Below are positions 2,619 to 45,312 of a stretch of DNA of 64,000 nt, one piece after another. The stretch is from Deltaproteobacteria bacterium (lineage in GTDB: Bacteria > Desulfobacterota > GWC2-55-46 > UBA9637): NCBI GenBank assembly GCA_016219285.1, contig JACRNJ010000032.1, positions 21,721 through 85,720 of the forward strand, given 5' to 3'. The position numbers were made by a program, and so were the translations under genes. A model generated the notes under the pieces. The model was not told the origin of the DNA. It ran no database searches and was given only the letters and a program-made list of their open reading frames with translations. Within the stretch, counting starts at the first letter, position 1. Each line of letters opens with the position of its first letter.

Positions 2619-2628
2619 AAAAATCAAG

Positions 2629-3387: not shown

Positions 3388-3395
3388 AATGTAAA

Positions 3396-7065: not shown

Positions 7066-7128
7066 GCAGGGTGGGCTGTGCCCACCGCAAACATTGTCCT
7101 TTGTAATGGTGGGCAAAGCCCACCCTGC
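7066..7128. repeat. REPIN-like palindromic doublet (gggtgggcNNtgcccacc x2, inverted), copy 1 of 3
   Basis: gcagggtgggctgtgcccaccgcaaacattgtcctttgtaatggtgggcaaagcccaccctgc. Each half is itself a palindrome. Near-identical copies lie at 23151-23212 and 49400-49463. Confidence 0.85.
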
Positions 7129-10820: not shown

Positions 10821-11882
10821 ATGTCATTCAAAGATATTTTAGGACATGATAGAGAAATAAGCATTTTGAAGAAAGCCATTTCAAATAATAGAGTTGCTCA
10901 TTCATTTTTATTTGCTGGGCATGAAGGGATAGGCAAACGGCTTGTTGCCATTTCCGTTGCAAAGGCGCTTAACTGCTCTGCTGCAAACAAGAGCCCCTCC
11001 TTATCGCCATTTAACAAAACAGGATGTGATGGAAGTAATAATGATTTTTGCGGGGTTTGTCAAAACTGCAAGGATATAGAGGCCTCTTCATACAGCGATG
11101 TCTTTCTGATTGAGCCGAGAGAGCCGGAATCCAAGGGCGGGAAAATAGACCATATAGCCGGCACAATAAAGATTGATGCTGTGAGAGATGTTCAGCAAAG
11201 GCTGTCTTACAGGGCAGCAAGAGGCGGCAAAAAGGTGTGTATAGTAGACTGCGCCGAGAAGATGAATAAAGAGGCTCAGAATGCATTCCTTAAAACACTT
11301 GAAGAGCCACCTTCTGATTCCATTATAATATTGGTTGTTAGCGATGGCGGAGCCATTTTGCCGACAATAACTTCTCGCTGCCAAAGGATCAATTTTACCC
11401 CGCTGCCGCAAAATGTTATGCTTGACATAGTCGGAGAACGATTGGGGGCAGCAAAAGAAACTGCTGTGCTGCTTGCTTGTTTGAGTGGAGGCAGCATAGG
11501 AAAGGCATTAAACTTGGATATGGATACCATGCTTGAACAAAGGAAAAAGATTGTTGAAGTATTATCACGGTTATCTTTGGATGATGCAGAAGGAATGTTC
11601 AAAGCAGCTGAAAAGATATCAAAAGGAGAGAGGCCTGTAGAGTCTCTGGAGTTTCTCAAAATATGGTATAGAGATATTGCGATATTAAAGGAAGGTGTGG
11701 AGGATATGGTTGTAAATTCAGACCTCCTGCCTGTTTTAAGACAGCATATGGAGCGCCAAACTTTTTCAAGGCTTATATCCGATTTTCAAATGGTGCTAAA
11801 TGCCCAATCTGATATTATGCCGCCAAGGTATGCAAATAAACAATTGACTATTGAAAATTTGCTTATGCAGCTTGCCACATAA
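10821..11882 (+). CDS. holB: DNA polymerase III subunit delta-prime
   Basis: AAA+ clamp-loader N-terminus (AHSFLFAGHEGIGKRLVA), a zinc-module-like CxxC...CxxC segment, and a SRC-like TSRCQ motif. Follows tmk. Confidence 0.8.
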   Translation: MSFKDILGHDREISILKKAISNNRVAHSFLFAGHEGIGKRLVAISVAKALNCSAANKSPSLSPFNKTGCDGSNNDFCGVCQNCKDIEASSYSDVFLIEPREPESKGGKIDHIAGTIKIDAVRDVQQRLSYRAARGGKKVCIVDCAEKMNKEAQNAFLKTLEEPPSDSIIILVVSDGGAILPTITSRCQRINFTPLPQNVMLDIVGERLGAAKETAVLLACLSGGSIGKALNLDMDTMLEQRKKIVEVLSRLSLDDAEGMFKAAEKISKGERPVESLEFLKIWYRDIAILKEGVEDMVVNSDLLPVLRQHMERQTFSRLISDFQMVLNAQSDIMPPRYANKQLTIENLLMQLAT

Positions 11883-12075
11883 TGATTTACGAATTACGAT
11901 TTACGAATTACGATTTTAAATACTTCACCTTACTTGCAAATCATAAATCTATACACAGCGACATAAATAGTTGCGCATACAGAGCGTCAGAACAAAGCAG
12001 ACCGAGGAGCAACACAGGTATGCGAAGTTATGACGCTCTGTATAAAATCGTAAATCATAATGGAGGATTGATATA

Positions 12076-14367: not shown

Positions 14368-14383
14368 AGATTTCAAACCTATA

Positions 14384-14622
14384 GTCAGCGACATAAATTT
14401 GTAGTATGCCGATTTACCCCGTTAGAAGCTTTTCAATTGAAGATTTTGATGAAACTTTATTAACATTAACTCCCTTAAAATGAACTTCTAACGGGGTTTA
14501 TCGGCGATTTTAAACTTGTCCCCGCAGGCTTTAAGCTGGGATACGCCCATGGGGGCACCCAACAGAAAGTTGGGTCGGGCAAACTACATCTACATTATTT
14601 TTATCGTCAACTATAAAGCCTT
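14384..14622. mobile_element. composite/nested MITE-like element (family: gtagtNtgcc...caaactac) directly after the metG stop
   Basis: Shares both ends (agcgacataaatttgtagt...ggcacccaacagaaNgttgggtcgggcaaactac...atttttNtcgtc) with the 45190-45312 copy. It carries an extra internal inverted-repeat insert (ccccgttagaag...cttctaacgggg). Confidence 0.8.
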
Positions 14623-14640
14623 GATAACACAGGAGATGCT

Positions 14641-15096
14641 ATGAAAAACTTACTGACTTTATTCACAATGCTTGCCTTTATTTCCAGTTGTTCAAAAGGA
14701 AACAATGCAGATGTGAAACCTGCTCAGGATAAGAAGCCTGCCAGAGTTGTGAAGTTGAATGTAGATATGACCGAGGAACAGAGACTTCAGAAGGCTGCGG
14801 ACAGTGGATATCAGTCATGGAGGAACAGCCCTGTAGATGTTGCGCAAGCCGCGCTTGTGAACGCAGGGGCAAATGTAAATATGGCGGACTGCAGATTATT
14901 GTCAGAGAAGGTAGACGAGGCAGTGGTTTCAGCAAGCAATAAAAAAGGCAGCTATAAGGTTATCTGTAAAAGAGTTGTAAAGGATGGAGGTATATGGACT
15001 GCAACAGAAGTTGAGGTCGGTGAATTATCAGGTGAAGCCGGCCATCAAATAGGTGGAGAAAATATGGAACATGAGCATAGGGAGCATGAACATTAA
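14641..15096 (+). CDS. lipoprotein with His-rich C-terminal tail, function unknown
   Basis: Signal peptide plus lipobox (FISSCSK). The C-terminus is GENMEHEHREHEH. Confidence 0.45.
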   Translation: MKNLLTLFTMLAFISSCSKGNNADVKPAQDKKPARVVKLNVDMTEEQRLQKAADSGYQSWRNSPVDVAQAALVNAGANVNMADCRLLSEKVDEAVVSASNKKGSYKVICKRVVKDGGIWTATEVEVGELSGEAGHQIGGENMEHEHREHEH

Positions 15097-15174
15097 AGAA
15101 AAGGTTAAGGCTGAGGTTAAGGTGAATGTATTTCTCAACCTTAACCTGTCTTTAGTATAGGTTAGGTTACCATA

Positions 15175-16599
15175 TTGTCAAACCAATATAAACTCATAGA
15201 CACCCATGCCCATCTTGACGACCCTAAATTTAAGAACGACCTGGATGACGTGATAAAAAGGGCAAAGGATGCAGGCGTTGGACATATAATCACTGTAGGC
15301 ACATGGCAAATTGAAAAAGGACTCAAGCATGTTGCAGAGCTTGCCGATGAATACGATTTTATCTATACTGCCCTTGGTGTTCATCCACATGATGCCAAAG
15401 ATGCAAATGATGACGCATTTAATGAAATCAAGGAACTGGCGCTCCATCCAAAGGTTATCGCCATTGGCGAAACAGGGCTTGATTATCATTACGAACACTC
15501 GCCGAGGGATGTTCAAAAAGCAGTATTTGCAAGGCAAATCCAAATAGCCCGTGAATTAAATCTGCCTCTTACCATTCACAGCAGGGAAGCACAGAACGAC
15601 ACTTTGGATATGCTTGCGCAGGAAGGTGTCAGAGACATCGGAGGTGTTTTGCATTGTTTTTCCGGCAGCTATGAAATGGCAAAGAAATGCCTTGATATGG
15701 GTCTCTATCTCTCCTTTACAGGTGTTGTCACATTTCCAAAGGCGGCAAATGTCCATGAGGTTGTAAAAAAGATTCCTATTGAAAGAATGCTCCTTGAAAC
15801 CGATTGCCCGTATCTGGCTCCTGAGCCGCACAGGGGCAAGAGGAATGAACCGGCATTTGTTGCAGAAACTGGAAAAAGGATTTCTGAGATAAAGGGATTA
15901 TCGTTTGACGATGTGGCAAGGATTACCACATTAAATGCAAAGGAACTATTCGGCATTGAGAAAGAAAATAAAGAAACCAGAATAGCGTATCCCATCAGGA
16001 ATTCACTTTACCTCAATATCACCAACCGATGCACCAACTACTGCACATTCTGCGCAAAGCATGCCCCCGCAGGCTTTAAGCGGGGGTCGAATGATTATAC
16101 TGTCAAGGGTCATTATTTGAGATTGAAGCAAGAGCCGGTCTTTCTTGATGTAATAATGGCTGTGGGCGACAGGCCTGCTGAAAAATATAACGAGATTGTA
16201 TTTTGCGGGTTTGGCGAGCCGCTTATAAGACTCGACCTTGTTAAAGAGGTTGGATTGTTTCTAAAAAAACAGGGTTGTAAGATACGGATAGATACAGACG
16301 GCCTTGCCAATCTTGTTCATGAAAGAAATATCCTGCCTGAACTTAAGTTTGTGGATACAATCTCCGTAAGTCTCAATGCCCCGGATTCAGCAACATATCA
16401 AAAACTCATCAAAACACCATTTGGCGACAAGGCATTTCCTGCCATAGTTTGGTTTTTGAAAGAGGCAAAAAAGCATATTTCAACGGTTGTTGCCACCGTA
16501 GTTGCTGTGCCAGAACTTGATATAGAGCCGTGCAGGAAATTGGCCGAAGATGAGCTCGGCGTTGGTTTCAGGGTGAGGGAGTATGATGAGGTGGGATAA
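15175..16599 (+). CDS. tatD: fusion protein: TatD-family metal-dependent hydrolase (N-terminal) plus TatD-associated radical SAM domain (C-terminal)
   Basis: TTG start. N-terminus DTHAHLDD ... GLDYHY ... ETDCPYL is a TatD fold. The C-terminal part of about 200 aa has CTNYCTFC (CxxxCxxC) and GFGEPL, a radical SAM core. It forms a single uninterrupted ORF of 474 aa downstream of metG, as Bacillus metS-yabD. Confidence 0.8.
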   Translation: MSNQYKLIDTHAHLDDPKFKNDLDDVIKRAKDAGVGHIITVGTWQIEKGLKHVAELADEYDFIYTALGVHPHDAKDANDDAFNEIKELALHPKVIAIGETGLDYHYEHSPRDVQKAVFARQIQIARELNLPLTIHSREAQNDTLDMLAQEGVRDIGGVLHCFSGSYEMAKKCLDMGLYLSFTGVVTFPKAANVHEVVKKIPIERMLLETDCPYLAPEPHRGKRNEPAFVAETGKRISEIKGLSFDDVARITTLNAKELFGIEKENKETRIAYPIRNSLYLNITNRCTNYCTFCAKHAPAGFKRGSNDYTVKGHYLRLKQEPVFLDVIMAVGDRPAEKYNEIVFCGFGEPLIRLDLVKEVGLFLKKQGCKIRIDTDGLANLVHERNILPELKFVDTISVSLNAPDSATYQKLIKTPFGDKAFPAIVWFLKEAKKHISTVVATVVAVPELDIEPCRKLAEDELGVGFRVREYDEVG

Positions 16600-20320: not shown

Positions 20321-20373
20321 GTAGTTTGCCCATTTATGGGCGTCTTAAAAATCGCCGATAAATCGGCAACTAC
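20321..20373. mobile_element. MITE-like palindromic element, canonical 53 bp copy
   Basis: gtagtt-tgcccatttatgggcg-tcttaaaaat-cgccgataaatcggca-actac. It has terminal inverted repeats and two internal perfect palindromes. Confidence 0.85.
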
Positions 20374-22721: not shown

Positions 22722-22790
22722 GTAGTGTGCCCATTTATGGGCGTATTTAAAAACGTAGATAAACCGATAAGCTGCAAATCATTGACTACA
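22722..22790. mobile_element. MITE-like element, degenerate copy
   Basis: gtagtgtgcccatttatgggcg...cgtagataaaccgataagc...gactacaatc. Confidence 0.6.
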
Positions 22791-22797: not shown

Positions 22798-23763
22798 TTG
22801 CCGATGTTAAACAAACCAAAGAAAAATTCTAAAACGCCGATAAATCGGCAACTACAATCTTACGGTTTTTCTCCCTTAAAAAGATTCAGCCAAAACTTTC
22901 TCACCGATGAACGGATTGCCGGCAAGATTATTGATGCGTTTGAACTGAAAGAGGACGATACGGTAATAGAAATAGGCCCCGGTCTTGGCATGCTGACAGA
23001 GCGGCTGTTGGACACAGGGGCAAAGGTTCTGGCAATAGAGATAGATAAGGGTTTTGCAGATATTCTTGATAAAAGATTCGGCAGCAGGGATAATTTTGAA
23101 AAAATAATATGTCAAGATGCATTAAAAATTTCGTATAAAGAATTGTTTTGTAGGGTGGGCTGCGCCCACCAAAAACAGACGGATAAAAATGGCGGGCAAA
23201 GCCCGCCCTACAACGATAACAAGAAGCTTGCCCCTGCGGGCATAAAACAGTGGTTTAAGGTTATTTCCAATCTCCCTTACAACATCTCAACACCCATTAT
23301 TTTTAAACTTCTTGAGGAGCGCGAGATATTTTCAATGTTCCTGCTTATGCTGCAAAAAGAGGTGGCCGAACGGATTGTATCGCAGCCTGACACAAAAGAG
23401 TACGGTGTTTTGTCTATATTTGTTCAACTGTTTGCAGATGTAAATATAGAGTTTGATGTGCCGCCATCTTCATTTTATCCAAAACCAAATGTCTATTCTT
23501 CTGTTGTTAGGTTCACTATATTGCAGAAACCGAGAGTTGAAATATATGACATCAGCTTTTTTAAAAGAGTTGTTAAGGCGTCTTTTGGGCAGAGGAGGAA
23601 AACCCTGCTAAATGCCTTAAAGGTTTTAAAACTGACAACCCAGGAGATTAGAAATGCCTTAGAGCAATCTGGTATAGAGCCGCAGGCAAGGGGGGAGACC
23701 CTTAGCCTTAAAGAATTTGGAATATTAAGCAATAACTTGAAGAAAATAGCAGAACATATTTAA
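22798..23763 (+). CDS. rsmA: 16S rRNA (adenine1518/1519-N6)-dimethyltransferase KsgA/RsmA with in-frame REPIN-derived insert
   Basis: Conserved motifs FSQNFL, IEIGPGLGMLT and NLPYNIST are present. A half-MITE (22832-22860) encodes part of the N-terminus. The full REPIN-like doublet at 23151-23212 is translated in frame as CRVGCAHQKQTDKNGGQSPPYN. Confidence 0.85.
   Translation: MPMLNKPKKNSKTPINRQLQSYGFSPLKRFSQNFLTDERIAGKIIDAFELKEDDTVIEIGPGLGMLTERLLDTGAKVLAIEIDKGFADILDKRFGSRDNFEKIICQDALKISYKELFCRVGCAHQKQTDKNGGQSPPYNDNKKLAPAGIKQWFKVISNLPYNISTPIIFKLLEEREIFSMFLLMLQKEVAERIVSQPDTKEYGVLSIFVQLFADVNIEFDVPPSSFYPKPNVYSSVVRFTILQKPRVEIYDISFFKRVVKASFGQRRKTLLNALKVLKLTTQEIRNALEQSGIEPQARGETLSLKEFGILSNNLKKIAEHI
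23151..23212. repeat. REPIN-like palindromic doublet, copy 2 of 3, located inside the rsmA coding sequence
   Basis: tagggtgggctgcgcccaccaaaaacagacggataaaaatggcgggcaaagcccgccctaca. Confidence 0.85.
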
Positions 23764-24233: not shown

Positions 24234-24899
24234 ATGTCCATTTCCGTCATAATTCCAACCTTGAATGAAGAAGATAATCTTGAACATACCTTGAAATCAG
24301 TTGGCCAAGATGCGGAGATTATTATTGCAGACGCCGGAAGCAGTGATTCCACAATCAAAATAGCCAATGGGTTCACAGACAAGATTATCATGTCGGAAAA
24401 AGGAAGAGGCGCTCAGATGGATAACGGGGCAAGAATGGCGACAGGCGATATATTCCTTTTCCTACATGCAGACACAAGGCTTCCTGATGGCTGGATGGAA
24501 AAAGTTGCAGAAGCGCTAAAAGATGCTAAAGTTGTTGGAGGGGGGTTCAGGTTAAAAATAAACTCAGGAAAATTCTCTTTTAGTATTATAGAGGCAATAG
24601 TTAATCTTCGGTCAAGACGCCTTGGCTTTATCTACGGGGACCAGGCTATATTTGTCAGAAGGGATGTCTTTTTATCGGTTGGAGGTTTTATGGGGCTTCC
24701 ACTGATGGAGGATGTGGACTTAATGAGAAGGCTCAAGAAGGTTGGCAAGGTTATTTTAGTGGATGCGCAGGCCTCTACATCTCCGAGGCGCTGGGAGAAG
24801 AGAGGTGTTTTGAGGACAACTTTAAGAAACTGGATGTTTTTGAGCCTTTATTATCTTGGTGTTTCTCCGCAAAAATTATATAAATGTTATTATCAGTAG
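24234..24899 (+). CDS. family 2 glycosyltransferase
   Basis: N-terminal pattern SVIIPTLNEE...IIADAGSSD...GRGAQMDNG...GDIFLFLHADT is a GT-A fold with a DxD region. The ATG at 24234 is preferred over the ORF-track start at 24177, which lies in the hairpin. Confidence 0.7.
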   Translation: MSISVIIPTLNEEDNLEHTLKSVGQDAEIIIADAGSSDSTIKIANGFTDKIIMSEKGRGAQMDNGARMATGDIFLFLHADTRLPDGWMEKVAEALKDAKVVGGGFRLKINSGKFSFSIIEAIVNLRSRRLGFIYGDQAIFVRRDVFLSVGGFMGLPLMEDVDLMRRLKKVGKVILVDAQASTSPRRWEKRGVLRTTLRNWMFLSLYYLGVSPQKLYKCYYQ

Positions 24900-25014
24900 T
24901 CTGCCGATTTATCGGCGATTGTAACTCAAACCTTCAGATTTGAGTTTTTCAAGGCTAAAGCCTTGAGTTACAAAATGCGCCCATAAATGGGCAGGCTGCA
25001 AAAATATTAACTAC
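24896..25014. mobile_element. MITE-like element, inverted orientation with nested internal hairpin insert
   Basis: gtagtctgccgatttatcggcg...(gtaactcaaa...ttgagttac insert)...cgcccataaatgggcag...aactac. Confidence 0.8.
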
Positions 25015-28142: not shown

Positions 28143-29489
28143 TTATTTGGCGCTGACCGGTATTGTAAACCTAAAAGTGGTTCCTTTGTCCAGTTCACTT
28201 TCTATTGAAATAGTGCCGCCGTGCCTCTCAATTATATGCCTTGTCATGGCAAGGCCAAGACCTGTGCCTTTTGTTGTTTTTATAACATTACCAGCCCTGA
28301 AGAATTCTTCAAAGATGTGCGGCATGTCATTTGACGGTATGCCAATCCCTGTATCTTTTATCTCCGCAATAATGTAGCCATTTTTTCGTGAAACCTTTAT
28401 CCAGACATTTCCTCCATGTTGAGTATATTTGAACGCATTGGCAATGAGGTTTAGGAAGGCATAGGTTATTAATTCCCTGTCAGCCTTTATATCTGGCAAC
28501 TGCGCATCAATTTCTATGTTTAACTGTATATCCTTTTCTCCCATCTTCGACGATGCAATCTCCACAGCGGTATCTATAGCCTCTTTTATATTAAATATCT
28601 TCAGATTAAGATTTTTCTCCGCCCTTATTCTGGAGAGATCAAGAAGGTCTTTTGCATAATGATGGAGAAATTCTGTTTTTTTCTGAATTCTCTGCAAAAC
28701 CTCTTTTACCTTTTCATCAAGGGTACCGGCAAACCCGCCTATCACTACCTCCAAAAGGCTCTGAATGGAGGCAAGGGGAGACTTTAAATCATGGCTGACC
28801 ATCTTTACATATTCATCTTTAAGTCTATCCTTTTCCAATAATTTCAGGTGAGCCTCCTCTAACTCTTTTTCCCTGTTTTTAAGCTTTTCTGCCAGGGATG
28901 CAGTGAAAAAGGTGGCGATGAAAATGGTGGATGTCAATACGAATGATATAGCTGCCGTATATATCTTATTTTTGTAAAGGTCTATGCCCAAAAATCCATT
29001 TACAGAGTGGTGAGGTAGAGTGTTTAGATATTCAAGCGTAAAGAGGCCGACTGTCAGAATAGAAATAATGCATGCCTGGATATAGGCCTCTTTTTTTGAG
29101 AGGAGCATGCTCGTAAGTATAGTATGGAAGATGAAATAAAATATAAATGGGTTTTCAGCGCCGCCTGTAAAGTGTATGAGAACAGTCAGGCTCAAAATGT
29201 CCAGCATACTCTGAAGAATCGCAAATCTCCGTATGGTCTTATGCAGATTGCCGGCAGATCTCTTGTTTATATAAAACTTAAAAATGGCATTATAAAGAGC
29301 TATGAATATGGCGATGAGATATACAGGAAGGTCAGGAAAGGAGACATTGAATAGATAGATAGACGTAAACGTTGCGGCAATAATAAATATCACAGCAGCC
29401 CAGCGTATATTTATGAGCCACTTTAGTCTTTCTACGAGTTCTTCTTGCCACAGATCTGTCTTATGCACATTTGTTTGCAGTTGCCGCAT
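28143..29489 (-). CDS. membrane sensor histidine kinase
   Basis: N-terminal 5-6 transmembrane segments, HisKA H-box MVSHDLKSPL, and an HATPase (DTGIGIP...GTGLGLAM). Confidence 0.85.
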   Translation of the reverse strand: MRQLQTNVHKTDLWQEELVERLKWLINIRWAAVIFIIAATFTSIYLFNVSFPDLPVYLIAIFIALYNAIFKFYINKRSAGNLHKTIRRFAILQSMLDILSLTVLIHFTGGAENPFIFYFIFHTILTSMLLSKKEAYIQACIISILTVGLFTLEYLNTLPHHSVNGFLGIDLYKNKIYTAAISFVLTSTIFIATFFTASLAEKLKNREKELEEAHLKLLEKDRLKDEYVKMVSHDLKSPLASIQSLLEVVIGGFAGTLDEKVKEVLQRIQKKTEFLHHYAKDLLDLSRIRAEKNLNLKIFNIKEAIDTAVEIASSKMGEKDIQLNIEIDAQLPDIKADRELITYAFLNLIANAFKYTQHGGNVWIKVSRKNGYIIAEIKDTGIGIPSNDMPHIFEEFFRAGNVIKTTKGTGLGLAMTRHIIERHGGTISIESELDKGTTFRFTIPVSAK

Positions 29490-29530
29490 TTATTGGGCTT
29501 ATTAAAGGCGCCGATAAATCGGCACACTAC
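29476..29530. mobile_element. MITE-like element, degenerate copy
   Basis: gcagttgccgcatttattgggc...ggcgccgataaatcggcacactac. Confidence 0.55.
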
Positions 29531-31362: not shown

Positions 31363-31554
31363 TCATGTCTTTTCGTATGCCTTTATGAAATCGTCTCTTG
31401 AAATGCCAGCTTGTGTGCAAATTGTTCTTAATGTGGAAGCCTTTATTTTGGGATGATTTGGCATGGTCAAAGGAGTTTTACTACCATCAGGGTTCTCCCG
31501 CACCATTGAGATATGTTCTTTTTCACGAACGATACGGAAACCTAAGATTTCCAA
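31363..31554 (-). CDS. hicA: HicA-family toxin (mRNA interferase)
   Basis: 63 aa with the pattern GF...E..HI.M....DGSKTPLTMPNHPKIKASTLRTICTQAGIS, typical of HicA/YcfA. Immediately downstream of hicB. Confidence 0.6.
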   Translation of the reverse strand: MEILGFRIVREKEHISMVRENPDGSKTPLTMPNHPKIKASTLRTICTQAGISRDDFIKAYEKT

Positions 31555-31602
31555 TGCCTTTACTACTTTCCGCTTTGTGGCGTCAACTGGAAACTTAGGT
31601 AT

Positions 31603-31827
31603 TTAAGCATCTACCCCTGTTTCGGCAACAAATGCCTCAAGGATAGGTGGTTCAATATCAAGGCCTTCTTCTCCAAAAGTCTCTATATGAAAACGGATTG
31701 CGGATTTAACATCCGCCAACGCCTCTTCGTATGTATCACCTTGGCCAACTACAATACTCTTGATTCCTAAAGGATATGCAACATAGCCATCAGTATGTTT
31801 TTCCACTATTATTTTATACTGTTTCAT
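31603..31827 (-). CDS. hicB: HicB-family antitoxin
   Basis: 74 aa with YKIIVEKHTDGYVAYPLGIKSIVVGQGDTYEEALADVKSAI, typical of the HicB N-domain (UPF0150). Confidence 0.65.
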   Translation of the reverse strand: MKQYKIIVEKHTDGYVAYPLGIKSIVVGQGDTYEEALADVKSAIRFHIETFGEEGLDIEPPILEAFVAETGVDA

Positions 31828-31890
31828 ACCATCTCCTTTGATTTTCTTTTGATTGAATTATATAACAAAAAAATGATTTGTTCATCATTT

Positions 31891-32101: not shown

Positions 32102-32723
32102 GTAGGTTGGGTTGAGCAAAGCGAAACCCAACAATTCATTCATACCCTACATCCTCATCAAATTGAATCTCACAACCTGCCCCCCAATCGCTCTTGTAAA
32201 TGCCCTGTTTAACATAACGATGAAAACTTGAATATGCCCAGTCGCGTGGCAATGTTACCAGACTATGTTTAACAGGATTGTAATGGATGTAATTACAATG
32301 CGCCTCAAAATCTTTCTCGTCTCTAATCTGATGCTCCCAAAACCGCCTCTGCCAAACCGCTTGTTCTCCCTTACTTAATTTTGAGGCAGATCTAAAGCCT
32401 TTATATCCATCCTGACATTGTCTGCTAAAATAGCTTTTTATAAGCCCCCATCGCAGAGAAAAATCATTATCGTTGTGCGGCAATGTCCAGATACAGTGAA
32501 TATGATCGGGCAGCAAAACAAATGCGTCAATCCGAAAGGTGTGTCTGTTGATAACATACTGAAACGCTTCTTTTATCAACCGTATGTTTGCTTCATGGCA
32601 TAAAATCCTTTTCCTCCCGTGCGTTACCACCGTAAAGAAAAATGCCGCCCCTTTTGCCTTTGACCTGCGATAACGCATTGCTTTTTATGATTATGTTGGG
32701 TTTCGTTCCTCAACCCAACCTAC
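32102..32723. mobile_element. RAYT (REP-associated tyrosine transposase) unit bounded by hairpin inverted repeats
   Basis: Left end is gtaggttgggttgagcaaagcgaaacccaaca. Right end is tgttgggtttcgttcctcaacccaacctac, its inverse, and each end is an 8-bp-stem hairpin. The unit encloses one transposase gene. Confidence 0.8.
32136..32678 (-). CDS. REP-associated tyrosine transposase (IS200/IS605 TnpA-like, Y1 HUH family)
   Basis: HuH motif LPDHIHCIW and catalytic Tyr region NYIHYNPVKH. Length 180 aa, which is longer than IS200 TnpA and typical of RAYTs. Confidence 0.8.
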   Translation of the reverse strand: MRYRRSKAKGAAFFFTVVTHGRKRILCHEANIRLIKEAFQYVINRHTFRIDAFVLLPDHIHCIWTLPHNDNDFSLRWGLIKSYFSRQCQDGYKGFRSASKLSKGEQAVWQRRFWEHQIRDEKDFEAHCNYIHYNPVKHSLVTLPRDWAYSSFHRYVKQGIYKSDWGAGCEIQFDEDVGYE

Positions 32724-32898
32724 CAACTTCAGTAAGGGTTATGACAGAAGAAAAAGCGCTCAATCTCTCTGACTGAAAAGAATCAACCACTTCTTTGGCA
32801 ATTGATCCAAACTGAGGATTAGCTTCGATGTAATAAATGATGGGCGCTGTATCTATGAAAATAGTATTTATTTGATCAAGTTCATCCGAGAGGGTCAT
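32710..32898 (-). pseudogene. vapC: N-terminal half of PIN-domain (VapC) toxin gene truncated at the RAYT element boundary
   Basis: IFIDTAPIIYYIE has the first PIN Asp and ITLTEV has the second acidic residue. The ORF ends inside the right inverted repeat of the RAYT unit. Confidence 0.5.
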
Positions 32899-33119
32899 AT
32901 CCGATCCTCTCTCAAACGATTAACATACTCTTGAGCATCTTCACCTTTCCATAACCCTTTCCCAAGGCCATAGAGTTTATTCCAGTCAAGTTCCTTTTTC
33001 ATAGCAAGTCCTGTCTTGCCTAATTGATGAACAAGCCTTTCTACTAATTTTAACTGTTCCTGAGGCGTAAGTTTTCCTATCTCTTTTCCAATCTTTTCTA
33101 AGGTAACTCCTTTTTTCAT
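32895..33119 (-). CDS. putative antitoxin partner of the disrupted PIN toxin
   Basis: 74 aa, 4-nt overlap with the vapC fragment, positioned upstream as antitoxins usually are. Family not recognised with confidence. Confidence 0.35.
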   Translation of the reverse strand: MKKGVTLEKIGKEIGKLTPQEQLKLVERLVHQLGKTGLAMKKELDWNKLYGLGKGLWKGEDAQEYVNRLREDRI

Positions 33120-33577
33120 TTTAACCCCCTTTCTTTAATTTATTATCATTCTCCAAGGTAAACAAATATGTCTGTATTATAATATCAACACAAAAGTTTT
33201 GCTATATTATTAAAGCGCCCCAAAAATAGATATTGATTTTTTGAGAAACCTGCAAGTCCTTGACAGACGTTTCACCTGTCAAGGGCAAGTTGGCTGTTAG
33301 ACAACACACCCCTAAATCCCCTCTCGAGAGGGGACTAAAGGGGCGTGTTATTTACAACGAGCCCTCCCCCTTTATCCCCCTCATGGAGGGGGACAGGGGG
33401 AGGATACGGTGAGGAGCAAAGATGTGCCGATAACGAAGTATGGCAGGCAAATCGCAGGTTTGTAAAATAGCGAGGTTTTTAATCGCTATTTTACGGAAGT
33501 GCTTAATGGTGTCTGACGTGTTCATAGGCGAATAATTCGCTTTTTTATTTGGGAACAGTCTCCTTGGAAGTCTTTTC

Positions 33578-34732: not shown

Positions 34733-34969
34733 TTACATCTTTTTTGCGGGTTCTTCAGGTTTTGTTGCAGACGTAGGTTTTGTTCCTGCGGCAGATTCCA
34801 ATTTTTCCTTTTGGGGAGTTACATCTATCTCTTCTTCGGAAGATGACTTTTTAAAGTTTCTGATAGCCTCGCCAAGACCGCTGCCTATACTGGGCAGTTT
34901 CCCAACGCCAAATATTATCAGGATGATTACAAGGATAATTATAAGTTCAGTTGTTCCTATGCCAAACAT
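34733..34969 (-). CDS. tatA: twin-arginine translocase subunit TatA/E
   Basis: [26 protein letters not shown]...G.G.AIRNFKK is the canonical TatA transmembrane helix plus amphipathic helix. Confidence 0.8.
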
Positions 34970-35021
34970 ATAAAAATATACCTCCCAACGAGGCTTTTAT
35001 TATTGCAAGATTGTTTTATAT

Positions 35022-35873
35022 ATGTCAATAAAAATCTTATCTCTGGATAAAGGTCAGCTCTTTGTTTTTTTGATAATTTCCATTCTTCTCCATATTGGGA
35101 TTATTTTGATTGTTCCACATGCAAGAGAAGACAAAAAGGTTTTGCCAAGGTTGATACCTGTTGATGTAATAGAATTGCCGCAGCCAAAAAAGATAGAAGA
35201 AGGCAAGACGGTGGAGAAGGTTCAGGGTGGGGAACAAAAAAAAGAAATATTACCTGTGCCACCGCCGGCAAAAGAGGAAGAAACAGCAAACCATATTCCT
35301 ATTAAGGGGCATCCTGTAGAACCAGAACAAGCCCTGCCTCTAGAGACAAAAAATTCACTAAAAGAAGAAGAGCAGGAGATTCAAAGCCAGAAGTCAGAAA
35401 AAAACAAAGAAACACCTCAGTCACCAGAGGCATTAAAACAAGAAAAGCCTTTAAGTCTCTATCCCACAGGAGAACGTCTTTCAGAGTTATCAGAGAAATA
35501 TGAAAAGGAAACCCCTGTGGCAGAGGAGAATAAAAGCCTTTCCCTTGAGGCAAGCGACCCTAAATCTATTTCCTATCTTCAAGGGCTCAAAGGCAAAATT
35601 TATCACAAATGGGAATATCCTGAAGCTGCTGCAAGAACGGGACAGACAGGCAGGCTTTGGGTTCGGTTTATTATTAAGAAAGACGGGGAATTAGAAGAAG
35701 TAATAGTTATAAAATCCTCTGGCTATCCAATGCTTGACGATGCGGCGCTCTCTGCTATACGATTGGCAGCGCCCTATTATCCCTTTCCAAATGGCTTTGG
35801 CAGCCTTGAAAGGATTACCATTAATGCCTCTTTCGAATACATGATAGAATTTCTACCGCGTGTGAAGAGATAA
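35022..35873 (+). CDS. TonB-family energy transducer
   Basis: N-terminal transmembrane anchor, a Pro/Glu/Lys-rich spacer, and a C-terminal TonB fold (KIYHKWEYPEAAARTGQTGRLWVRFIIKKDGEL...SSGYPMLDDAAL). Confidence 0.75.
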   Translation: MSIKILSLDKGQLFVFLIISILLHIGIILIVPHAREDKKVLPRLIPVDVIELPQPKKIEEGKTVEKVQGGEQKKEILPVPPPAKEEETANHIPIKGHPVEPEQALPLETKNSLKEEEQEIQSQKSEKNKETPQSPEALKQEKPLSLYPTGERLSELSEKYEKETPVAEENKSLSLEASDPKSISYLQGLKGKIYHKWEYPEAAARTGQTGRLWVRFIIKKDGELEEVIVIKSSGYPMLDDAALSAIRLAAPYYPFPNGFGSLERITINASFEYMIEFLPRVKR

Positions 35874-35904
35874 TTTTACAGGATAATAAAGGAGTTTATT
35901 TATC

Positions 35905-36543
35905 GTGAAGATGTCCGAGATATTCTTAAGCATTCAAGGCGAGTCAAGCTACACAGGGCTTCCCTGTATATTTATCAGGCTTGCAGGCTGCAACCTGCGC
36001 TGTAGCTGGTGCGATACCACATATGCCCAGACTTCTGAGCAGGGTGAGAATCTTTCCATTGAACAGATAATCGGCGAGCTAAAAAAAATCAATTGCAAGT
36101 TGGTGGAGATTACCGGCGGCGAACCGCTGTTTCAGAAAGAGACACCTGTACTGGTAAACAGGCTGTTGAAACTGGGCTATGAAGTGCTCCTTGAAACCAA
36201 TGGCAGCATCAATCTTGAGCCAGTTAATACAAATGCAGTAAAGATAGTGGATGTCAAGTGCCCCTCCAGCGGTCATGACGGAAGCTTCTTCATGGAAAAT
36301 CTCAGATTTATTACATTGAAGGATGAGGTAAAATTTGTTATAGCGGACCGGAAAGATTACGAGTTTGCCTGCGATTTTTTGGAGACATGCATTAAAGATA
36401 AAGCCACAAAGATTCTTTTTGCTCCGGTGTATCCCGATATGCCTTCTCAGGAGCTTGCCAAATGGATACTTGCAGACGGGATTAAGGTAAGGCTTCAACT
36501 TCAGATGCATAAATTGATTTGGGGAGAAGAAAAAGGAAGGTAA
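35905..36543 (+). CDS. queE: 7-carboxy-7-deazaguanine synthase
   Basis: EIFLSIQGES...RLAGCNLRCSWCDT (QueE-type CxxxCxxC after a Gly-rich cap). Length 212 aa. Confidence 0.85.
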   Translation: MKMSEIFLSIQGESSYTGLPCIFIRLAGCNLRCSWCDTTYAQTSEQGENLSIEQIIGELKKINCKLVEITGGEPLFQKETPVLVNRLLKLGYEVLLETNGSINLEPVNTNAVKIVDVKCPSSGHDGSFFMENLRFITLKDEVKFVIADRKDYEFACDFLETCIKDKATKILFAPVYPDMPSQELAKWILADGIKVRLQLQMHKLIWGEEKGR

Positions 36544-37341
36544 ATGAGGTTATTTGTTTTCAGCGCTTTAATTCTATACATTTTAACTTTTCTGCTTGTT
36601 ATCTTCTATCACATAACAAAAAAAGAGAGCATTGAAACCCTTTCCAAATCTGCCGTCATAATCGGGCTTATCACCCATACCATTGCTTTATCTATAAGGA
36701 CATATGAATCAGGCCATGCGCCCATGATGGCCATGTATGAAACACTGCTTTTTTATAGCTGGTCAACTATTCTTGTAAGCGCCATTGTGATATTCCGATA
36801 CAATGAAAGACTTACAGAGCTTATAACCATCCCTGTTGCCATACTGGCAATGGTCTTCGCTCAACTCAATGAAACGTCTGCAAAACCATTAACGTTGATA
36901 TTAAAGACACGTTGGTTTGAAACCCATGTAATAGCGTCATTTGCAGCATACGCCATGTTTACACTATCATTTTCAGGAGCGCTGTTATATTTACTCTCTG
37001 AACTCCGCGTCAGTTCTGCGGGCGCCCAAAACGCTGAACTTAAAAAAGATTTCCAGGACATTGCCAATAGAAGCATCCTCTGGGGGTTTTTCTTCTTTTC
37101 CGCTTCCATGTTTGCAGGCGCGATATGGGCATACCTTGCATGGGGCACATACTGGCTTTGGGAGCCGAAGGTCATCTGGTCATTCATCGTCTGGTTTTAC
37201 TATGCAGGCGCAATGCATGCATATTATGTAAAGGAGTGGAGGGGCAGAGGCTTGGTAATTGCAACTGTGCTCGGATTTTTTGTGGTGCTGTTTACATATC
37301 TTGGGGTGAGTCTCTTAATGAAGAGTAGCCACAGTTTTTGA
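36544..37341 (+). CDS. ccsA: cytochrome c assembly protein CcsA/ResC family (heme handling)
   Basis: Polytopic membrane protein with a tryptophan-rich WWD-type segment (WAYLAWGTYWLWEPKVIWSFIVW) and conserved His residues. Confidence 0.7.
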   Translation: MRLFVFSALILYILTFLLVIFYHITKKESIETLSKSAVIIGLITHTIALSIRTYESGHAPMMAMYETLLFYSWSTILVSAIVIFRYNERLTELITIPVAILAMVFAQLNETSAKPLTLILKTRWFETHVIASFAAYAMFTLSFSGALLYLLSELRVSSAGAQNAELKKDFQDIANRSILWGFFFFSASMFAGAIWAYLAWGTYWLWEPKVIWSFIVWFYYAGAMHAYYVKEWRGRGLVIATVLGFFVVLFTYLGVSLLMKSSHSF

Positions 37342-37428
37342 CGGCTTTGTAAAAAGTCCATCTGTGGAGCCTGTTCCGAGCAAAGTGAGAAATCTTGGTC
37401 TTCGCTGCGGCTTCTGCGTTCAACACCT

Positions 37429-37483
37429 GTAGTTTGCCCATTTATGGGCGTTTTTTAAAAGCGCCGATAAATCGGCAGACTAC
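37429..37483. mobile_element. MITE-like element, canonical copy
   Basis: gtagtttgcccatttatgggcgttttttaaaagcgccgataaatcggcagactac. Confidence 0.85.
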
Positions 37484-37530
37484 ACCCATATTCTATAGAT
37501 ACAGAAGAAAGAAAAACCATTTTATTATTC

Positions 37531-41376: not shown

Positions 41377-41509
41377 GAAAGATTCAAGATTTAAGATACA
41401 AGATTTAAGATACAAGATGCAATATGCAAGATTCAATATTTATAATTATTTTTGGCTGCAATCTGAAACTTGTAACTTGCAACCATATTCATTGAAAGGA
41501 GATTGAGAT
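41377..41509. repeat. intergenic tandem simple repeat (aagatttaagatacaagat units) plus tgcaa-type tail
   Basis: gattcaagatttaagatacaagatttaagatacaagatgcaatatgcaagattcaa...ctgcaatctgaaacttgtaacttgcaacc. Confidence 0.8.
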
Positions 41510-45183: not shown

Positions 45184-45189
45184 ATTATA

Positions 45190-45312
45190 GGCAGCGACAT
45201 AAATTTGTAGTCTGCCGATTTATCGGCGGTTTTAAAATACGCCCATGGGGCACCCAACAGAAGGTTGGGTCGGGCAAACTACAGCTACTTATTTTTGTCG
45301 TCCACTATAGAA
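45190..45312. mobile_element. MITE-like element (long form) directly after the rnc stop
   Basis: agcgacataaatttgtagtctgccgatttatcggcgg...cgcccatggggcacccaacagaaggttgggtcgggcaaactacagctac...atttttgtcgtc. It is the un-nested counterpart of 14384-14622. Confidence 0.8.

What the first reader, a model, noticed from the sequence alone, without database searches (positions are those of the whole stretch)
20321..20373. Abundant MITE-like palindromic element family with nested and intragenic copies
- Core structure: gtagtt-TGCCCATTTATGGGCG-(spacer)-CGCCGATAAATCGGCA-aactac.
- It has terminal inverted repeats and two different perfect 16-bp palindromes.
- Copies lie at 14384-14622, 20321-20373, 22722-22790, 22832-22860 (a half-copy inside ksgA), 24896-25014, 29476-29530, 37429-37483 and 45190-45312, plus fragments at 11935-12060 and 16065-16088.
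- Long forms add an agcgacataaat head and a cccaacagaaggttggg hairpin tail.
- Two copies carry further inverted-repeat insertions, so the elements are nested.
- Most copies sit within a few nucleotides of a stop codon (metG, rnc, tsaD, the GT2 gene, ccsA).
- No transposase belongs to the family within the window, so it is non-autonomous.
Basis: seen in the sequence. Interest (0 to 1): 0.7.

Follow-up and report, generated by a model that had tools for sequence, protein, structure and literature searches.

The report
GTAG-tagged REP doublets (REPINs)
The repeated palindromic element is a family of REP doublets (REPINs), small non-coding hitch-hikers that a single-copy tyrosine transposase (RAYT) is thought to copy, so it is a new example of a well-described kind of bacterial repeat, here in an uncultured groundwater bacterium.

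Summary
The repeat family is real. The window has 10 half-sites against 0.4-0.8 expected by chance: seven doublets and one singleton.

Each half is GTAG, two bases, then a 5-bp-stem hairpin (GCCCA-TTTA-TGGGC or GCCGA-TTTA-TCGGC). These are not perfect 16-bp palindromes. Two halves lie head-to-head with GTAG outside. In 41 of 42 perfect doublets one arm is the C-type and the other the G-type.

This is the anatomy of GTAG-tagged REP "HH heterodimers", or REPINs, not of a TIR/TSD MITE.

In a Doudnabacteria MAG a 137-aa Y1 (HUH) transposase gene sits exactly between the two halves. Relatives of that protein (at least 52% identity) carry the same or co-varying REPs. One subclade lies in genomes related to the window's lineage.

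A second relative occupies a site where a deltaproteobacterial MAG has a plain doublet.

The window itself (an NCBI "Deltaproteobacteria bacterium" groundwater MAG) holds a RAYT at 32136-32678, but that gene is flanked by a different REP. The cognate gene was not seen in this genome.

A syntenic relative (about 77% identity, 21 kb) has no copies.

Nesting, stop-codon donation and an in-frame half in ksgA are confirmed, and all are features already published for GTAG REPs.

Verdict: new member of a known kind, of modest interest.

The parts
20321..20373 (.). Simple REP doublet (REPIN). C-type arm GTAGTT-TGCCCATTTATGGGCG at 20321-20342, spacer at 20343-20352, G-type arm CGCCGATAAATCGGCA-ACTAC at 20353-20373. 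It lies 20 nt upstream of the aminotransferase start codon (20393).
   Evidence: Covariance model 74 bits. ssDNA fold -13.3 kcal/mol, z = -5.1.
37340..37483 (+). REP doublet at 37429-37483 inside a truncated outer inverted-repeat shell (shell B: T(G/A)ACGGCTTTGTAAAAAG...). The shell starts on the TGA stop codon of the ccsA-like gene. Its right half is missing here.
   Evidence: (80 bits). The orthologous copy in L013 is 90% identical and has a complete shell.
22722..22789 (+). REP doublet starting 5 nt after the tsaD stop codon. The C-type arm (22722-22743) is intact. The G-type arm (22754-22769) is decayed, and 15 extra bases precede ACTAC.
   Evidence: (42 bits).
22835..22855 (-). Single G-type REP half (CGCCGATAAATCGGCA-ACTAC). 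It lies in frame in the 5' end of the ksgA reading frame and encodes ..TPINRQLQ...
   Evidence: No start codon lies between it and the conserved KRFSQNFL motif.
24896..25014 (-). Interrupted REP doublet. G-type arm at 24896-24917; the TAG of its GTAG is the stop codon of the GT2 gene. A 51-nt inverted-repeat insert at 24921-24971 sits in the spacer. C-type arm at 24978-24993, then 15 extra bases before AACTAC at 25009-25014.
29477..29530 (+). REP doublet between a response-regulator gene and a histidine-kinase gene, both on the minus strand. The C-type arm is decayed and the G-type arm intact. The TAG of the minus-strand GTAG (29530-29527) is the stop codon of the response-regulator gene.
   Evidence: (35.6 bits).
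14380..14616 (-). Composite starting 13 nt after the metG stop codon. Outer shell A (TATAG-CAGCGACATAAATTT ... TTATCGTCAAC-TATAA) encloses a REP doublet at 14401-14587, which carries three nested insertions. (1) An 80-nt inverted-repeat element at 14417-14496 in the loop of the G-type arm, with TTTA present on both sides. (2) A 27-nt hairpin at 14515-14541 in the spacer. (3) A roughly 25-nt CCCAAC..GTTGGG hairpin in the loop of the C-type arm.
   Evidence: Intact reference copies are L035, L015 and L010.
45186..45310 (-). Composite starting 3 nt after the rnc stop codon. Outer shell A encloses a REP doublet at 45207-45282, with the same CCCAAC..GTTGGG hairpin inserted in the loop of the C-type arm.
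   Evidence: D11, D18; 61 nt 100% identical to L015.
32136..32678 (-). RAYT gene (180 aa) in the window. It is not the partner of this family. It is flanked by inverted copies of a different GTAG REP (GTAGGTTGGGTTGAG..AACCCAAC) at 32102-32132 and 32695-32723.
   Evidence: 42% identical to E. coli RayT, E = 1e-38. NCBIfam REP_Tyr_transpos 193 bits against a cutoff of 80; Pfam Y1_Tnp. Flanks.

Best explanation
The element is a REPIN: two GTAG-tagged REP hairpins in inverted, head-to-head order with the GTAG tags outside.

It belongs to a family whose partner is a particular clade of small (about 137 aa) REP-associated tyrosine transposases, or RAYTs. These are HUH/Y1 enzymes of the IS200/IS605 superfamily.

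**Shown here**
- The anatomy of the element.
- Its excess over chance.
- The strict pairing of a C-type arm with a G-type arm.
- Conservation of the hairpin through compensatory changes.
- The placement of RAYT genes exactly between the two halves in other genomes.
- Co-variation of REP sequence with RAYT sequence.
- Absence of the family from a syntenic relative.

**Inferred from published work on E. coli, Stenotrophomonas and Marinomonas TnpAREP and on IS608**
- When the DNA is single-stranded, for example during replication, each arm folds into its hairpin.
- The RAYT binds the hairpin together with the GTAG tag, here probably also the invariant ATT(T/C)AT centre.
- It cuts next to the tag through its tyrosine and moves or copies the doublet to a new site without a target duplication.
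- The RAYT gene itself stays single-copy in the chromosome.

**Secondary consequences**
- Copies survive only where they do no harm, so they pile up in the short gaps after stop codons.
- Sometimes a copy supplies the TAG stop codon.
- Occasionally a copy is tolerated in frame, as at the ksgA N-terminus.
- Other small repeats later insert into the copies.
- Two longer inverted-repeat shells (A and B) that enclose the doublet have multiplied as units.
For: **Excess over chance**
-.

**Anatomy and heterotypy**
- 41 of 42 perfect doublets in 40 loci plus the window pair one C-type arm with one G-type arm.

**Folding**
- The doublet folds as a long hairpin with two symmetrical 1x1 mismatches: -13.3 kcal/mol, z = -5.1.
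- An artificial homotypic version would reach -22 kcal/mol.

**RAYT between the halves**
- L025 (Doudnabacteria): GTAGCG-TGCCCATTTATGGGCG lies 15 nt before the ATG, and CGCCGATAAATCGGCA-CGCTAC lies 6 nt after the stop codon.
- That protein matches Pfam Y1_Tnp at 27.8 bits (cutoff 23) and NCBIfam REP_Tyr_transpos at E = 8.5e-21.
- It has the HxH and YYEH motifs, invariant in 22 relatives.

**The same pattern in relatives**
- L042-L048 carry the same pattern.
- L126-L128 have 13-18 REP halves clustered round the gene. The locus OMP-RAYT-tRNA-Leu-tig-clpP-clpX-lon recurs in 8 or more samples.

**Link to the window's lineage**
- The lon gene of L126/L127 is 75-81% identical to Delta MAG locus L032.
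- A 149-nt repeat is shared with the window at 92% identity.
- L134 has geneX|REP-RAYT-REP|pgi, where Delta MAG L011 has geneX|REPIN|pgi with the same GTAG-derived stop codon.

**Covariation**
- REP halves were picked only by GTAG, spacing and ATTYAT, near 49 of 58 RAYT genes.
- They are 87.5% paired against 56.9% in shuffles, with covariation score 0.793 against 0.227 (0 of 500 shuffles). All slid controls score 0.152 or less.

**Other points**
- No target-site duplication at simple copies.
- Empty sites: the syntenic relative L123-L125 has 0 halves in 21 kb, with a 7-nt metG|tatD gap and a 22-nt tsaD|ksgA gap.

**Published parallels**
- PMC3733652: GTAG REPs, HH heterodimers, dimers inside longer palindromes, TAG stop codons, intragenic REPs.
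- PMC3116915: REPINs.
- PMC8266576: TnpAREP biochemistry.
Against: - The partner RAYT was not found in the window or in any of the roughly 300 kb of deltaproteobacterial MAG loci held.
- No close homologue of the L048-type RAYT carries a 'Deltaproteobacteria' name in the protein collection. The link to this genome therefore rests on relatives at 66-81% nucleotide identity.
- The RAYT that is in the window has a different REP.
- The partner-clade proteins score 70-78 bits on the NCBIfam RAYT model, just under its 80-bit cutoff.
- No cleavage, excision or transposition was observed. The presence/absence comparison is at about 77% identity, too distant to define insertion points.
- Loss in the relative cannot be told apart from gain in the window's lineage.
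Confidence: 0.85

Rival explanations
1. The elements are a classical MITE. That is, an internally deleted DDE-type insertion sequence (IS630/Tc1, IS5 or similar), with terminal inverted repeats recognised as double-stranded DNA and a target-site duplication.
For: The element has inverted ends and is short and non-coding. One element nested inside the copy at 14417-14496 does look like this, with 12-nt terminal inverted repeats and TTTA on both sides.
Against: - No direct repeat flanks any of the simple copies.
- The ends are the GTAG tag typical of REPs.
- The only protein gene ever found between the two halves is a Y1/HUH transposase.
- No DDE transposase gene was seen next to a copy in the loci examined.
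Confidence: 0.03
2. The copies are kept mainly because the host uses them at the RNA or DNA level. Candidate uses are 3'-end mRNA stabilisers, brakes on translation of the upstream gene, transcription attenuators, or binding sites for nucleoid proteins or gyrase, as proposed for E. coli REP/BIME. On this reading mobility is secondary or extinct.
For: - Six of seven doublets, or their shells, begin 0-13 nt after a stop codon in the window.
- The TAG of GTAG is a stop codon in 9 of 104 halves, against 23 of 1275 other GTAG tetramers.
- The RNA fold is stable: -23.4 kcal/mol, z = -6.2.
- The 16-mers are identical across phyla.
Against: - No run of T follows the hairpin, so it is not an intrinsic terminator.
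- Copies occur in both orientations relative to the upstream gene.
- One copy lies in a promoter/5' region at 20321.
- A close syntenic relative manages without any copy.
- No Rfam family matches.
- In compact genomes any surviving intergenic insert is close to a stop codon.
- This reading does not explain the RAYT genes sitting between the halves.
Confidence: 0.1
3. The family is a fossil in this genome. The partner RAYT has been lost and the copies are decaying relics that no longer move.
For: - No partner RAYT was found in the window or in the held deltaproteobacterial MAG loci.
- Several window copies are decayed or interrupted: 22754-22769, 29477-29498, 14401-14587 and 24896-25014.
Against: - Many arms are still perfect 16-mers in several MAGs.
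- The composite carrying the loop insertion exists in two copies (14544-14587 and 45240-45282), so it multiplied after that insertion (D11).
- RAYT loci are surrounded by REP clusters, which tend to break short-read assemblies, so absence from MAG contigs is weak evidence.
Confidence: 0.15

Closest known systems
GTAG-tagged REP families and their head-head (HH) heterodimers (Di Nocera, De Gregorio and Rocco 2013, PMC3733652)
   Same: - A GTAG tetranucleotide lies at the outer end of a short stem-loop.
- Dimers have the GTAG tags outside.
- The partners differ at complementary stem positions (heterodimers).
- Dimers are embedded in longer palindromes; the Anabaena variabilis example even starts with TATAGG.
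- The GTAG supplies TAG stop codons.
- Some copies lie in frame inside genes.
- Several REP families coexist in one genome.
   Different: - The stem here is at the short end of the range (5 bp), with a 4-nt loop and an invariant ATT(T/C)AT centre.
- Two unpaired bases separate the tag from the stem.
- The spacer is only 8-16 nt.
- The host is an uncultured groundwater lineage not in that survey. I could not compare with their 24 consensus sequences because the figure is not held.
REPIN-RAYT systems of Pseudomonas and Enterobacteria (Bertels and Rainey 2011, PMC3116915; Bertels et al. 2017, PMC5581495)
   Same: - An inverted REP doublet forms a long hairpin.
- Doublets outnumber singlets.
- The RAYT gene is single-copy, sits in a fixed chromosomal locus, and is flanked and surrounded by the REPs.
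- REP sequence co-varies with the RAYT.
   Different: - The two arms are systematically non-identical: one C-type and one G-type arm, which gives two mismatches in the long hairpin.
- The RAYT is shorter (about 137 aa) and only 26-33% identical to E. coli RayT or to the window's own RAYT.
- The clade is spread over many uncultivated phyla.
- The same 16-mers occur with RAYTs that are only 57% identical.
E. coli BIMEs and the REPtron (TnpAREP/RayT; PMC8266576, PMC3479197)
   Same: - Alternating REP types in inverted order.
- The transposase gene is flanked by REPs.
- The GTAG tag plus a hairpin is the substrate.
   Different: - E. coli REPs have a bulged, longer stem, and BIME linkers carry IHF sites.
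- Here the stems are perfect and short, which resembles the 'group 3' small-REP type that relies on loop bases.
- No host-factor site was tested here.
IS200/IS605 insertion sequences and their palindrome-associated derivatives
   Same: - A Y1/HUH transposase.
- Subterminal hairpins at both ends, recognised on single-stranded DNA.
- No target duplication.
   Different: - In IS200/IS605 the two end hairpins are in direct order on one strand, and the element with its transposase is multi-copy.
- Here the hairpins are in inverted order, carry GTAG tags, and the enzyme gene is single-copy.

Membership tests
GTAG-tagged REP (PMC3733652) | A conserved GTAG (or close variant) at one end of a short palindromic stem-loop | tested here: met
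   GTAG precedes the hairpin on its own strand in 9 of 10 window halves (one is GCAG) and in nearly all halves of 40 loci.
GTAG-tagged REP (PMC3733652) | A stem kept by base-pairing (complementary changes among subfamilies) with a short loop | tested here: met
   85 distinct halves near RAYT genes are 87.5% paired against 56.9% in shuffles. All 6 pairs show changes on both sides, and slid controls score 0.152 or less.
GTAG-tagged REP (PMC3733652) | High copy number, mostly between genes | tested here: inconclusive
   There are 10 halves in 64 kb against fewer than 1 expected, and all but one are intergenic.
REPIN (PMC3116915) | Two REPs in inverted orientation with a spacer, predicted to form one hairpin in single-stranded DNA | tested here: met
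   -13.3 to -19.7 kcal/mol, z from -5.1 to -7.1.
REPIN (PMC3116915) | Doublets are the predominant and better-conserved form; singlets are remnants | tested here: inconclusive
   The window has 7 doublets against 1 singlet. The numbers are too small for statistics.
REPIN (PMC3116915) | A RAYT gene flanked by the same REPs in the same genome | tested here: inconclusive
   Met in other genomes: L025, L042, L048/L126-L133 and L134. Not found in the window or in the held contigs of related MAGs. The window's own RAYT has another REP.
REPIN (PMC3116915) | Evidence of movement (excision or insertion polymorphism) | tested here: inconclusive
   A syntenic relative at about 77% identity lacks all copies. 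An orthologous copy is shared with L013 at 90% identity. No read-level data were available.
RAYT / TnpAREP (partner protein of L025, L048, L042, L134) | Y1/HUH fold with an HxH motif and a catalytic tyrosine; matches to the curated models | tested here: inconclusive
   Pfam Y1_Tnp is above cutoff (27.8 against 23). HxH and YYEH are invariant. NCBIfam REP_Tyr_transpos scores 70-78 bits against a cutoff of 80, far better than the IS200 model at 18-27 bits.
RAYT / TnpAREP | Single copy in a fixed chromosomal locus, not multiplied with its ends | tested here: met
   P0241 lies in the same OMP-RAYT-tRNA-Leu-tig-clpP locus in 8 contigs from different samples. The L025 copy lies between purC-like and purB-like genes.
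MITE derived from a DDE transposon | Target-site duplication flanking the terminal inverted repeats | tested here: not met
   No direct repeat was found at the borders of 42 doublets.
Intrinsic (rho-independent) terminator | A G+C-rich hairpin followed directly by a run of T | tested here: not met
   The sequence after ACTAC is AACTTGAGG, ACCCATATT, GTCCAATAA and so on.
Integron attC site | R''(RYYYAAC)...R'(GTTRRRY) order, lying between cassette ORFs in one orientation | tested here: not met
   The ends read GTAGTT...AACTAC, which is the opposite order. The copies lie between housekeeping genes.
Any Rfam RNA family | Match at the gathering score | tested here: not met
   0 matches in the window.

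The most novel reading that the evidence does not exclude
One RAYT clade is spread over many uncultivated phyla. Named hits include Doudnabacteria (candidate phyla radiation, CPR), Brocadiales, Zixibacteria, WOR-3, Omnitrophota and Nitrospirota, plus the window's 'Deltaproteobacteria' lineage.

The clade keeps a fixed recognition code: GTAG, an invariant ATT(T/C)AT centre, and a 5' REP and 3' REP that always differ by compensated stem changes.

The very same pair of 16-mers is used in tiny CPR genomes and in a co-occurring groundwater deltaproteobacterium, although their RAYTs are only 57% identical.

If this identity reflects transfer of the REPIN-RAYT system between a CPR episymbiont and its host, rather than retention of an ancestral state, two things follow:
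- It would break the view that REPIN-RAYT systems are strictly vertically inherited.
- It could serve as a marker for host-symbiont pairs.

The obligatory heterodimer would also imply that this clade tells left end from right end, like an IS200/IS605 element.
Probability: 0.12. Interest if true: 0.6.

Novelty: new member of a known kind. Interest (0 to 1): 0.33.

Why it matters
REP/REPIN-RAYT systems have been studied almost only in Pseudomonas, Enterobacteria and a few other cultured Proteobacteria.

This family extends them in two directions. One is an uncultured groundwater deltaproteobacterial lineage. The other, through the partner transposase clade, is candidate-phyla-radiation bacteria with very small genomes.

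Its strict pairing of two different arms and its invariant loop give a simple, testable recognition code for a small RAYT.

There are also practical consequences:
- Such repeats break short-read assemblies.
- They create spurious N- and C-terminal extensions in gene calls; several database proteins here read through a REP.
- They can supply stop codons or in-frame peptide inserts (GT2, response regulator, ksgA).

None of this changes the general picture of what REPs are.

Tried and rejected
**Initial wrong guess about the organism**
- I first suspected a cyanobacterium, with Nostoc-type small dispersed repeats. The basis was the heptamer tandem repeats and ccsA.
- The genome scan and protein hits show a groundwater 'Deltaproteobacteria bacterium' MAG instead.

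**Searches that found nothing**
- Rfam at gathering threshold gave no match.
- Exact look-ups of two window proteins to get the source contig found nothing on record. The source was identified only through the cluster accession MBI5327638.1.
- tblastn with five RAYTs against all held deltaproteobacterial loci and the window found no partner-clade gene.
- A homologue search with the L048 RAYT found no hit named as Deltaproteobacteria closer than 71%.
- The nested inserts (80-nt inverted-repeat element, 51-nt inverted-repeat element, loop hairpin) have no or few other copies in the DNA held. Their families could not be characterised.
- A literature search for RAYT together with Patescibacteria gave one unrelated preprint.

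**Ideas tested and dropped**
- The window's own RAYT (32136-32678) as partner: rejected, because its flanking REPs are GTAGGTTGGGTT.., not this family.
- GTAG as an insertion target that would explain the stop-codon overlap. The overlap is enriched (9 of 104 against 23 of 1275), but it affects a minority of copies and is already described for GTAG REPs. I treat it as a by-product.
- Integron attC, intrinsic terminator and DDE-MITE readings: rejected (see the membership tests).

**Limit reached**
- The genome-contig scan is limited to one, so I could not scan the related MAGs for the RAYT.
Full report

The sequence at 20321-20373 reads GTAGTT TGCCCATTTATGGGCG TCTTAAAAAT CGCCGATAAATCGGCA ACTAC.

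Each 16-mer, with up to three mismatches, matches 10 places in the window. Dinucleotide-preserving shuffles give 0.76 and 0.37, and none of 100 shuffles reaches 10.

The two searches hit the same 10 places on opposite strands. The right arm is therefore the reverse complement of the left arm with two changes.

Neither 16-mer is a perfect palindrome. Each is a 5-bp stem with a 4-nt loop: GCCCA-TTTA-TGGGC ('C-type') and, read on its own strand, GCCGA-TTTA-TCGGC ('G-type').

Reading all listed copies gives seven doublets and one singleton.

| Copy | Coordinates | State |
|---|---|---|
| Doublet | 14401-14587 | interrupted three times |
| Doublet | 20321-20373 | intact |
| Doublet | 22722-22789 | right arm decayed |
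| Doublet | 24896-25014 | interrupted |
| Doublet | 29477-29530 | left arm decayed |
| Doublet | 37429-37483 | intact |
| Doublet | 45207-45282 | interrupted once |
| Single G-type half | 22835-22855 | intact |

I built a covariance model from 39 doublets and ran it over the window without filters. It found these copies and nothing new.

The 'fragments' at 11935-12060 and 16065-16088 contain no half of this family. They belong to other repeats.

**2. Where does the window come from?**

A pattern for perfect doublets found 40 stretches in the species-representative genome collection. They fall in these groups:
- Groundwater MAGs labelled 'Deltaproteobacteria bacterium': RIFCSPHIGHO2_02_FULL_43_33, GWC2_42_11 and several NC_groundwater bins.
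- One Thermodesulfobacteriota MAG.
- One 'Ignavibacteriae' bin.
- Four independent Candidatus Doudnabacteria (CPR) MAGs, including a 699-kb contig.

The window is about 90% identical to one of the deltaproteobacterial contigs over 34920-37484.

Its TsaD is identical to NCBI protein MBI5327638.1, from a 96,761-nt contig of a 'Deltaproteobacteria bacterium' MAG.

**3. Anatomy across copies**

In 41 of 42 perfect doublets, one arm is C-type and the other G-type. Random pairing would give about half.

The deltaproteobacterial and Doudnabacteria copies differ as follows:

| Lineage | Outer ends | Spacer |
|---|---|---|
| Deltaproteobacterial MAGs | GTAG(T/C/A)N ... NNCTAC | A/T-rich, TTTTAAAAG-like |
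| Doudnabacteria | GTAGCG ... CGCTAC | different sequence |

The 16-mers themselves are identical in the two groups.

As single-stranded DNA the doublet folds into one long hairpin with two symmetrical 1x1 mismatches (C/C and G/G). Energies run from -13.3 to -19.7 kcal/mol, with z from -5 to -7. A made-up homotypic version would reach -22 kcal/mol. RNA folds the same way.

No direct repeat flanks the simple copies.

**4. The partner gene**

I ran a tblastn with E. coli RayT, taken from the K-12 record.

It hit the window at 32136-32678 on the minus strand: 42% identity, E = 1e-38. NCBIfam REP_Tyr_transpos scores 193 bits against a cutoff of 80.

That gene is flanked by inverted copies of a different GTAG REP, GTAGGTTGGGTTGAG..AACCCAAC, at 32102-32132 and 32695-32723. 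It belongs to another REP family.

The same search hit L025, a Doudnabacteria contig. There a 137-aa Y1_Tnp protein lies between purC-like and purB-like genes.
- GTAGCG-TGCCCATTTATGGGCG ends 15 nt before its ATG.
- CGCCGATAAATCGGCA-CGCTAC starts 6 nt after its stop codon.

The element of the finding is thus the two ends of a 'REPtron' with the gene removed.

This protein has more than 1000 homologues. Several database versions even read through a REP; one has the C-terminal peptide ..ADKSANY, which is GCCGATAAATCGGCAAACTAC translated.

A metagenome scan with an alignment of the clade returned 80 loci.
- Those at least about 52% identical to the L025 protein are flanked by the same halves or by close variants (L042-L048).
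- More distant ones carry other stems, but always GTAG, a stem, an invariant ATT(T/C)AT centre, and usually different 5' and 3' stems. An example is GTAGGGG-TTCGATTTATCGAA upstream and GTAGGGG-TCGGATTTATCCGA downstream.

I collected halves near 49 of 58 such genes by tag, spacing and centre only. The six stem pairs are 87.5% paired against 56.9% in shuffles. Every pair shows changes on both sides, and the covariation score is 0.793 against 0.227 (0 of 500 shuffles). Slid controls score 0.152 or less.

**5. Is the partner clade present in the window's lineage?**

One member (P0241; L048, L126-L133) is 57% identical to the Doudnabacteria protein.
- It sits in a fixed locus, outer-membrane protein - RAYT - tRNA-Leu - tig - clpP - clpX - lon, in contigs from at least eight samples.
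- It is surrounded by 13-18 REP halves with the deltaproteobacterial type of ends and spacers.
- The lon gene of these contigs is 75-81% identical to the start of locus L032, a 'Deltaproteobacteria' MAG.
- Another 149-nt repeat is shared with the window at 92% identity.

A second member (P0264, 71% identical to P0241) lies in L134 between a conserved gene and pgi. The orthologous site of deltaproteobacterial MAG locus L011 (flanks 66-69% identical) carries a plain doublet instead. In both, the TAG of the left GTAG is the stop codon of the upstream gene.

I did not find the gene in the window or in the roughly 300 kb of related MAG loci held. No named deltaproteobacterial homologue turned up either.

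The clusters of repeats round RAYT genes are likely to break short-read assemblies, but that is an inference.

**6. Evidence bearing on mobility**

A syntenic relative (L123-L125, about 77% nucleotide identity over 21 kb, same gene order from holB to the aldolase gene) has no half of this family.
- Its metG and tatD-like genes are 7 nt apart. In the window an 809-nt segment, with the composite copy and an extra 151-aa ORF, separates them.
- Its tsaD and ksgA are 22 nt apart. In the window a doublet and a single half lie there.

At this distance gain cannot be told from loss, and insertion points cannot be defined.

The copy after the ccsA-like gene is shared with L013 (90% identity) but differs by an internal insertion and a truncation.

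The composite with a hairpin inserted in the C-type loop occurs twice in the window, 90% identical over 50 nt (D11). It therefore multiplied after that insertion.

**7.

*Nesting* is confirmed by comparison with intact copies.
- The copy at 14401-14587 has an 80-nt element with 12-nt terminal inverted repeats in the loop of the G-type arm, with TTTA on both sides. That inserted element looks like a true TIR/TSD MITE.
- The same copy has a 27-nt hairpin in the spacer and a roughly 25-nt hairpin in the C-type loop.
- The copy at 24896 has a 51-nt inverted-repeat insert in its spacer.

*The 'long form'* is a doublet enclosed by an outer inverted repeat (shell A). It occurs in 11 copies in the held loci, always with the same internal orientation.

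A second shell (shell B) begins T(A/G)ACGGCTTTGTAAAAAG or GTTCACGCTGAAAAA. It encloses the doublet in at least 10 copies and often starts on a stop codon.

*Stop codons.* In the window six of seven doublets or shells start 0-13 nt after a stop codon. In two (GT2 gene and response regulator) the TAG of GTAG is the stop codon. Over all loci this holds for 9 of 104 halves, against 23 of 1275 other GTAG tetramers.

*The half 'inside ksgA'.* It is in frame in an N-terminal extension (MLNKPKKNSKTPINRQLQSYGFSPLKRFSQNF). No start codon lies between it and the conserved KRFSQNFL motif. The claim is supported, although the real start has not been mapped.

**8. Comparison with what is known**

Every feature above has been described for GTAG-tagged REPs (PMC3733652):
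- the tag;
- HH dimers;
- heterodimers with different stems;
- dimers embedded in longer palindromes, including an Anabaena variabilis shell starting TATAGG;
- TAG stop codons supplied by the tag;
- in-frame intragenic copies;
- coexistence of several families.

The doublet as the replicating unit, and its RAYT partner, are the REPIN concept (PMC3116915, PMC5581495).

The biochemistry is published for three TnpAREP/REP pairs (PMC8266576). It covers strand-specific binding of the folded single strand, a role for GTAG and for loop bases in small perfect REPs, and cleavage at CT/CA next to the tag.

The finding is therefore a new member of a known kind. It is not a MITE in the TIR/TSD sense, nor a terminator, an attC site or a known RNA (membership table).

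**9. What is a little unusual**

- The strict C-type/G-type pairing, kept through compensatory changes across the whole RAYT clade. It suggests that this clade distinguishes its two ends, or that a perfect long palindrome is selected against.
- The presence of the system in CPR genomes.
- The identity of the 16-mers between Doudnabacteria and the deltaproteobacterial lineage, although their RAYTs are only 57% identical and neither is nested in the other among the proteins I compared. I rate retention of an old recognition code as more likely than recent transfer.

**10. Verdict**

My confidence that this is a GTAG REP/REPIN family partnered with the identified RAYT clade is about 0.85. Whether it is still mobile in this genome remains open.

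Noticed in passing
window 32136-32678 (-), with 32102-32132 and 32695-32723: A RAYT gene (180 aa, 42% identical to E. coli RayT) is flanked by inverted copies of its own REP, GTAGGTTGGGTTGAG..AACCCAAC. This REP has only these two copies in the window. Small ORFs on both sides (about 31440-31830 and 32740-33120) were not analysed.
   Followed up: partly
window 7066-7128, 23150-23211, 49400-49463: A third GTAG REP doublet family: (G)TAGGGTGGGCTGYGCCCACC - spacer - GGYGGGCAWAGCCCRCCCTAC. A RAYT in L027 (5477-5938, between oppA-like and oppB-like genes) is flanked by similar GGCGGG..CCCGCC hairpins. L019 carries a copy beside a doublet of the main family.
   Followed up: partly
window 23150-23252 (inside ksgA, 22804-23763): The copy of the third family at 23150-23211, plus a further hairpin at 23224-23252, lies in frame inside ksgA. 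It adds about 26 residues (..CRVGCAHQKQTDKNGGQSPPYNDNKKLAPAGIKQWF..) relative to the L123 orthologue, which has a shorter CRGARPCAPT at the same place.
   Followed up: partly
L011 6981-7041 and L134 2236-2790: At orthologous sites (conserved gene | pgi), one genome has REP-RAYT-REP and a deltaproteobacterial MAG has a plain doublet. In both, the TAG of the left GTAG ends the upstream gene. This is a possible snapshot of a doublet arising by loss of the transposase gene, or the reverse.
   Followed up: partly
L004, L007-L009, L014, L016, L018, L024-L026, L030, L031, L033, L034, L036, L039 (Candidatus Doudnabacteria MAGs): Four independent CPR MAGs, including contigs of 267 kb and 699 kb, carry the same pair of 16-mers with GTAGCG/CGCTAC ends. 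One has the RAYT between the halves (L025). In these loci the TAG of GTAG is a stop codon in 6 of 41 halves. I found no published description of REPINs in such small genomes.
   Followed up: partly
window 2616-2675, 3383-3428, 11862-11935, 41362-41456, 54511-54570, 55982-56027, 57833-57931: Runs of tandem heptamers (AAGATTC/AAGATGC, TTACGAA/TTTACGA, AAAATGC and similar) lie in intergenic regions. Similar runs occur in L126, L006 and L017.
   Followed up: no
window 33351-33497: A 149-nt segment is 92% identical to L126 9696-9844 and also matches L006, L023 and L038. This is another dispersed repeat, with G/C-rich hairpins (CCCTCCCCC..GGGGGAGG) followed by an A/T-rich palindrome.
   Followed up: no
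window 14617-15174: The window has an extra 151-aa ORF (14641-15096) between metG and the tatD-like gene. The syntenic relative L123 lacks it. The ORF has a lipoprotein-like N-terminus (MKNLLTLFTMLAFISSCS), a His-rich C-terminus and no Pfam match.
   Followed up: partly
window 11935-12060; L023 5241-; L038 6167-: A further repeat family shares the TATACA-CAGCGACATAAAT head of shell A. Its interior is different, a long hairpin CATACAGAGCG(C/T)CA...TGACGCTCTGTATA.
   Followed up: no
L015 1744-1804 (bin labelled Ignavibacteriae): 61 nt of a shell-A composite are 100% identical to window 45186-45246. The bin comes from the same groundwater study as the deltaproteobacterial MAGs, so this contig may be mis-binned rather than evidence of a third phylum.
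   Followed up: no
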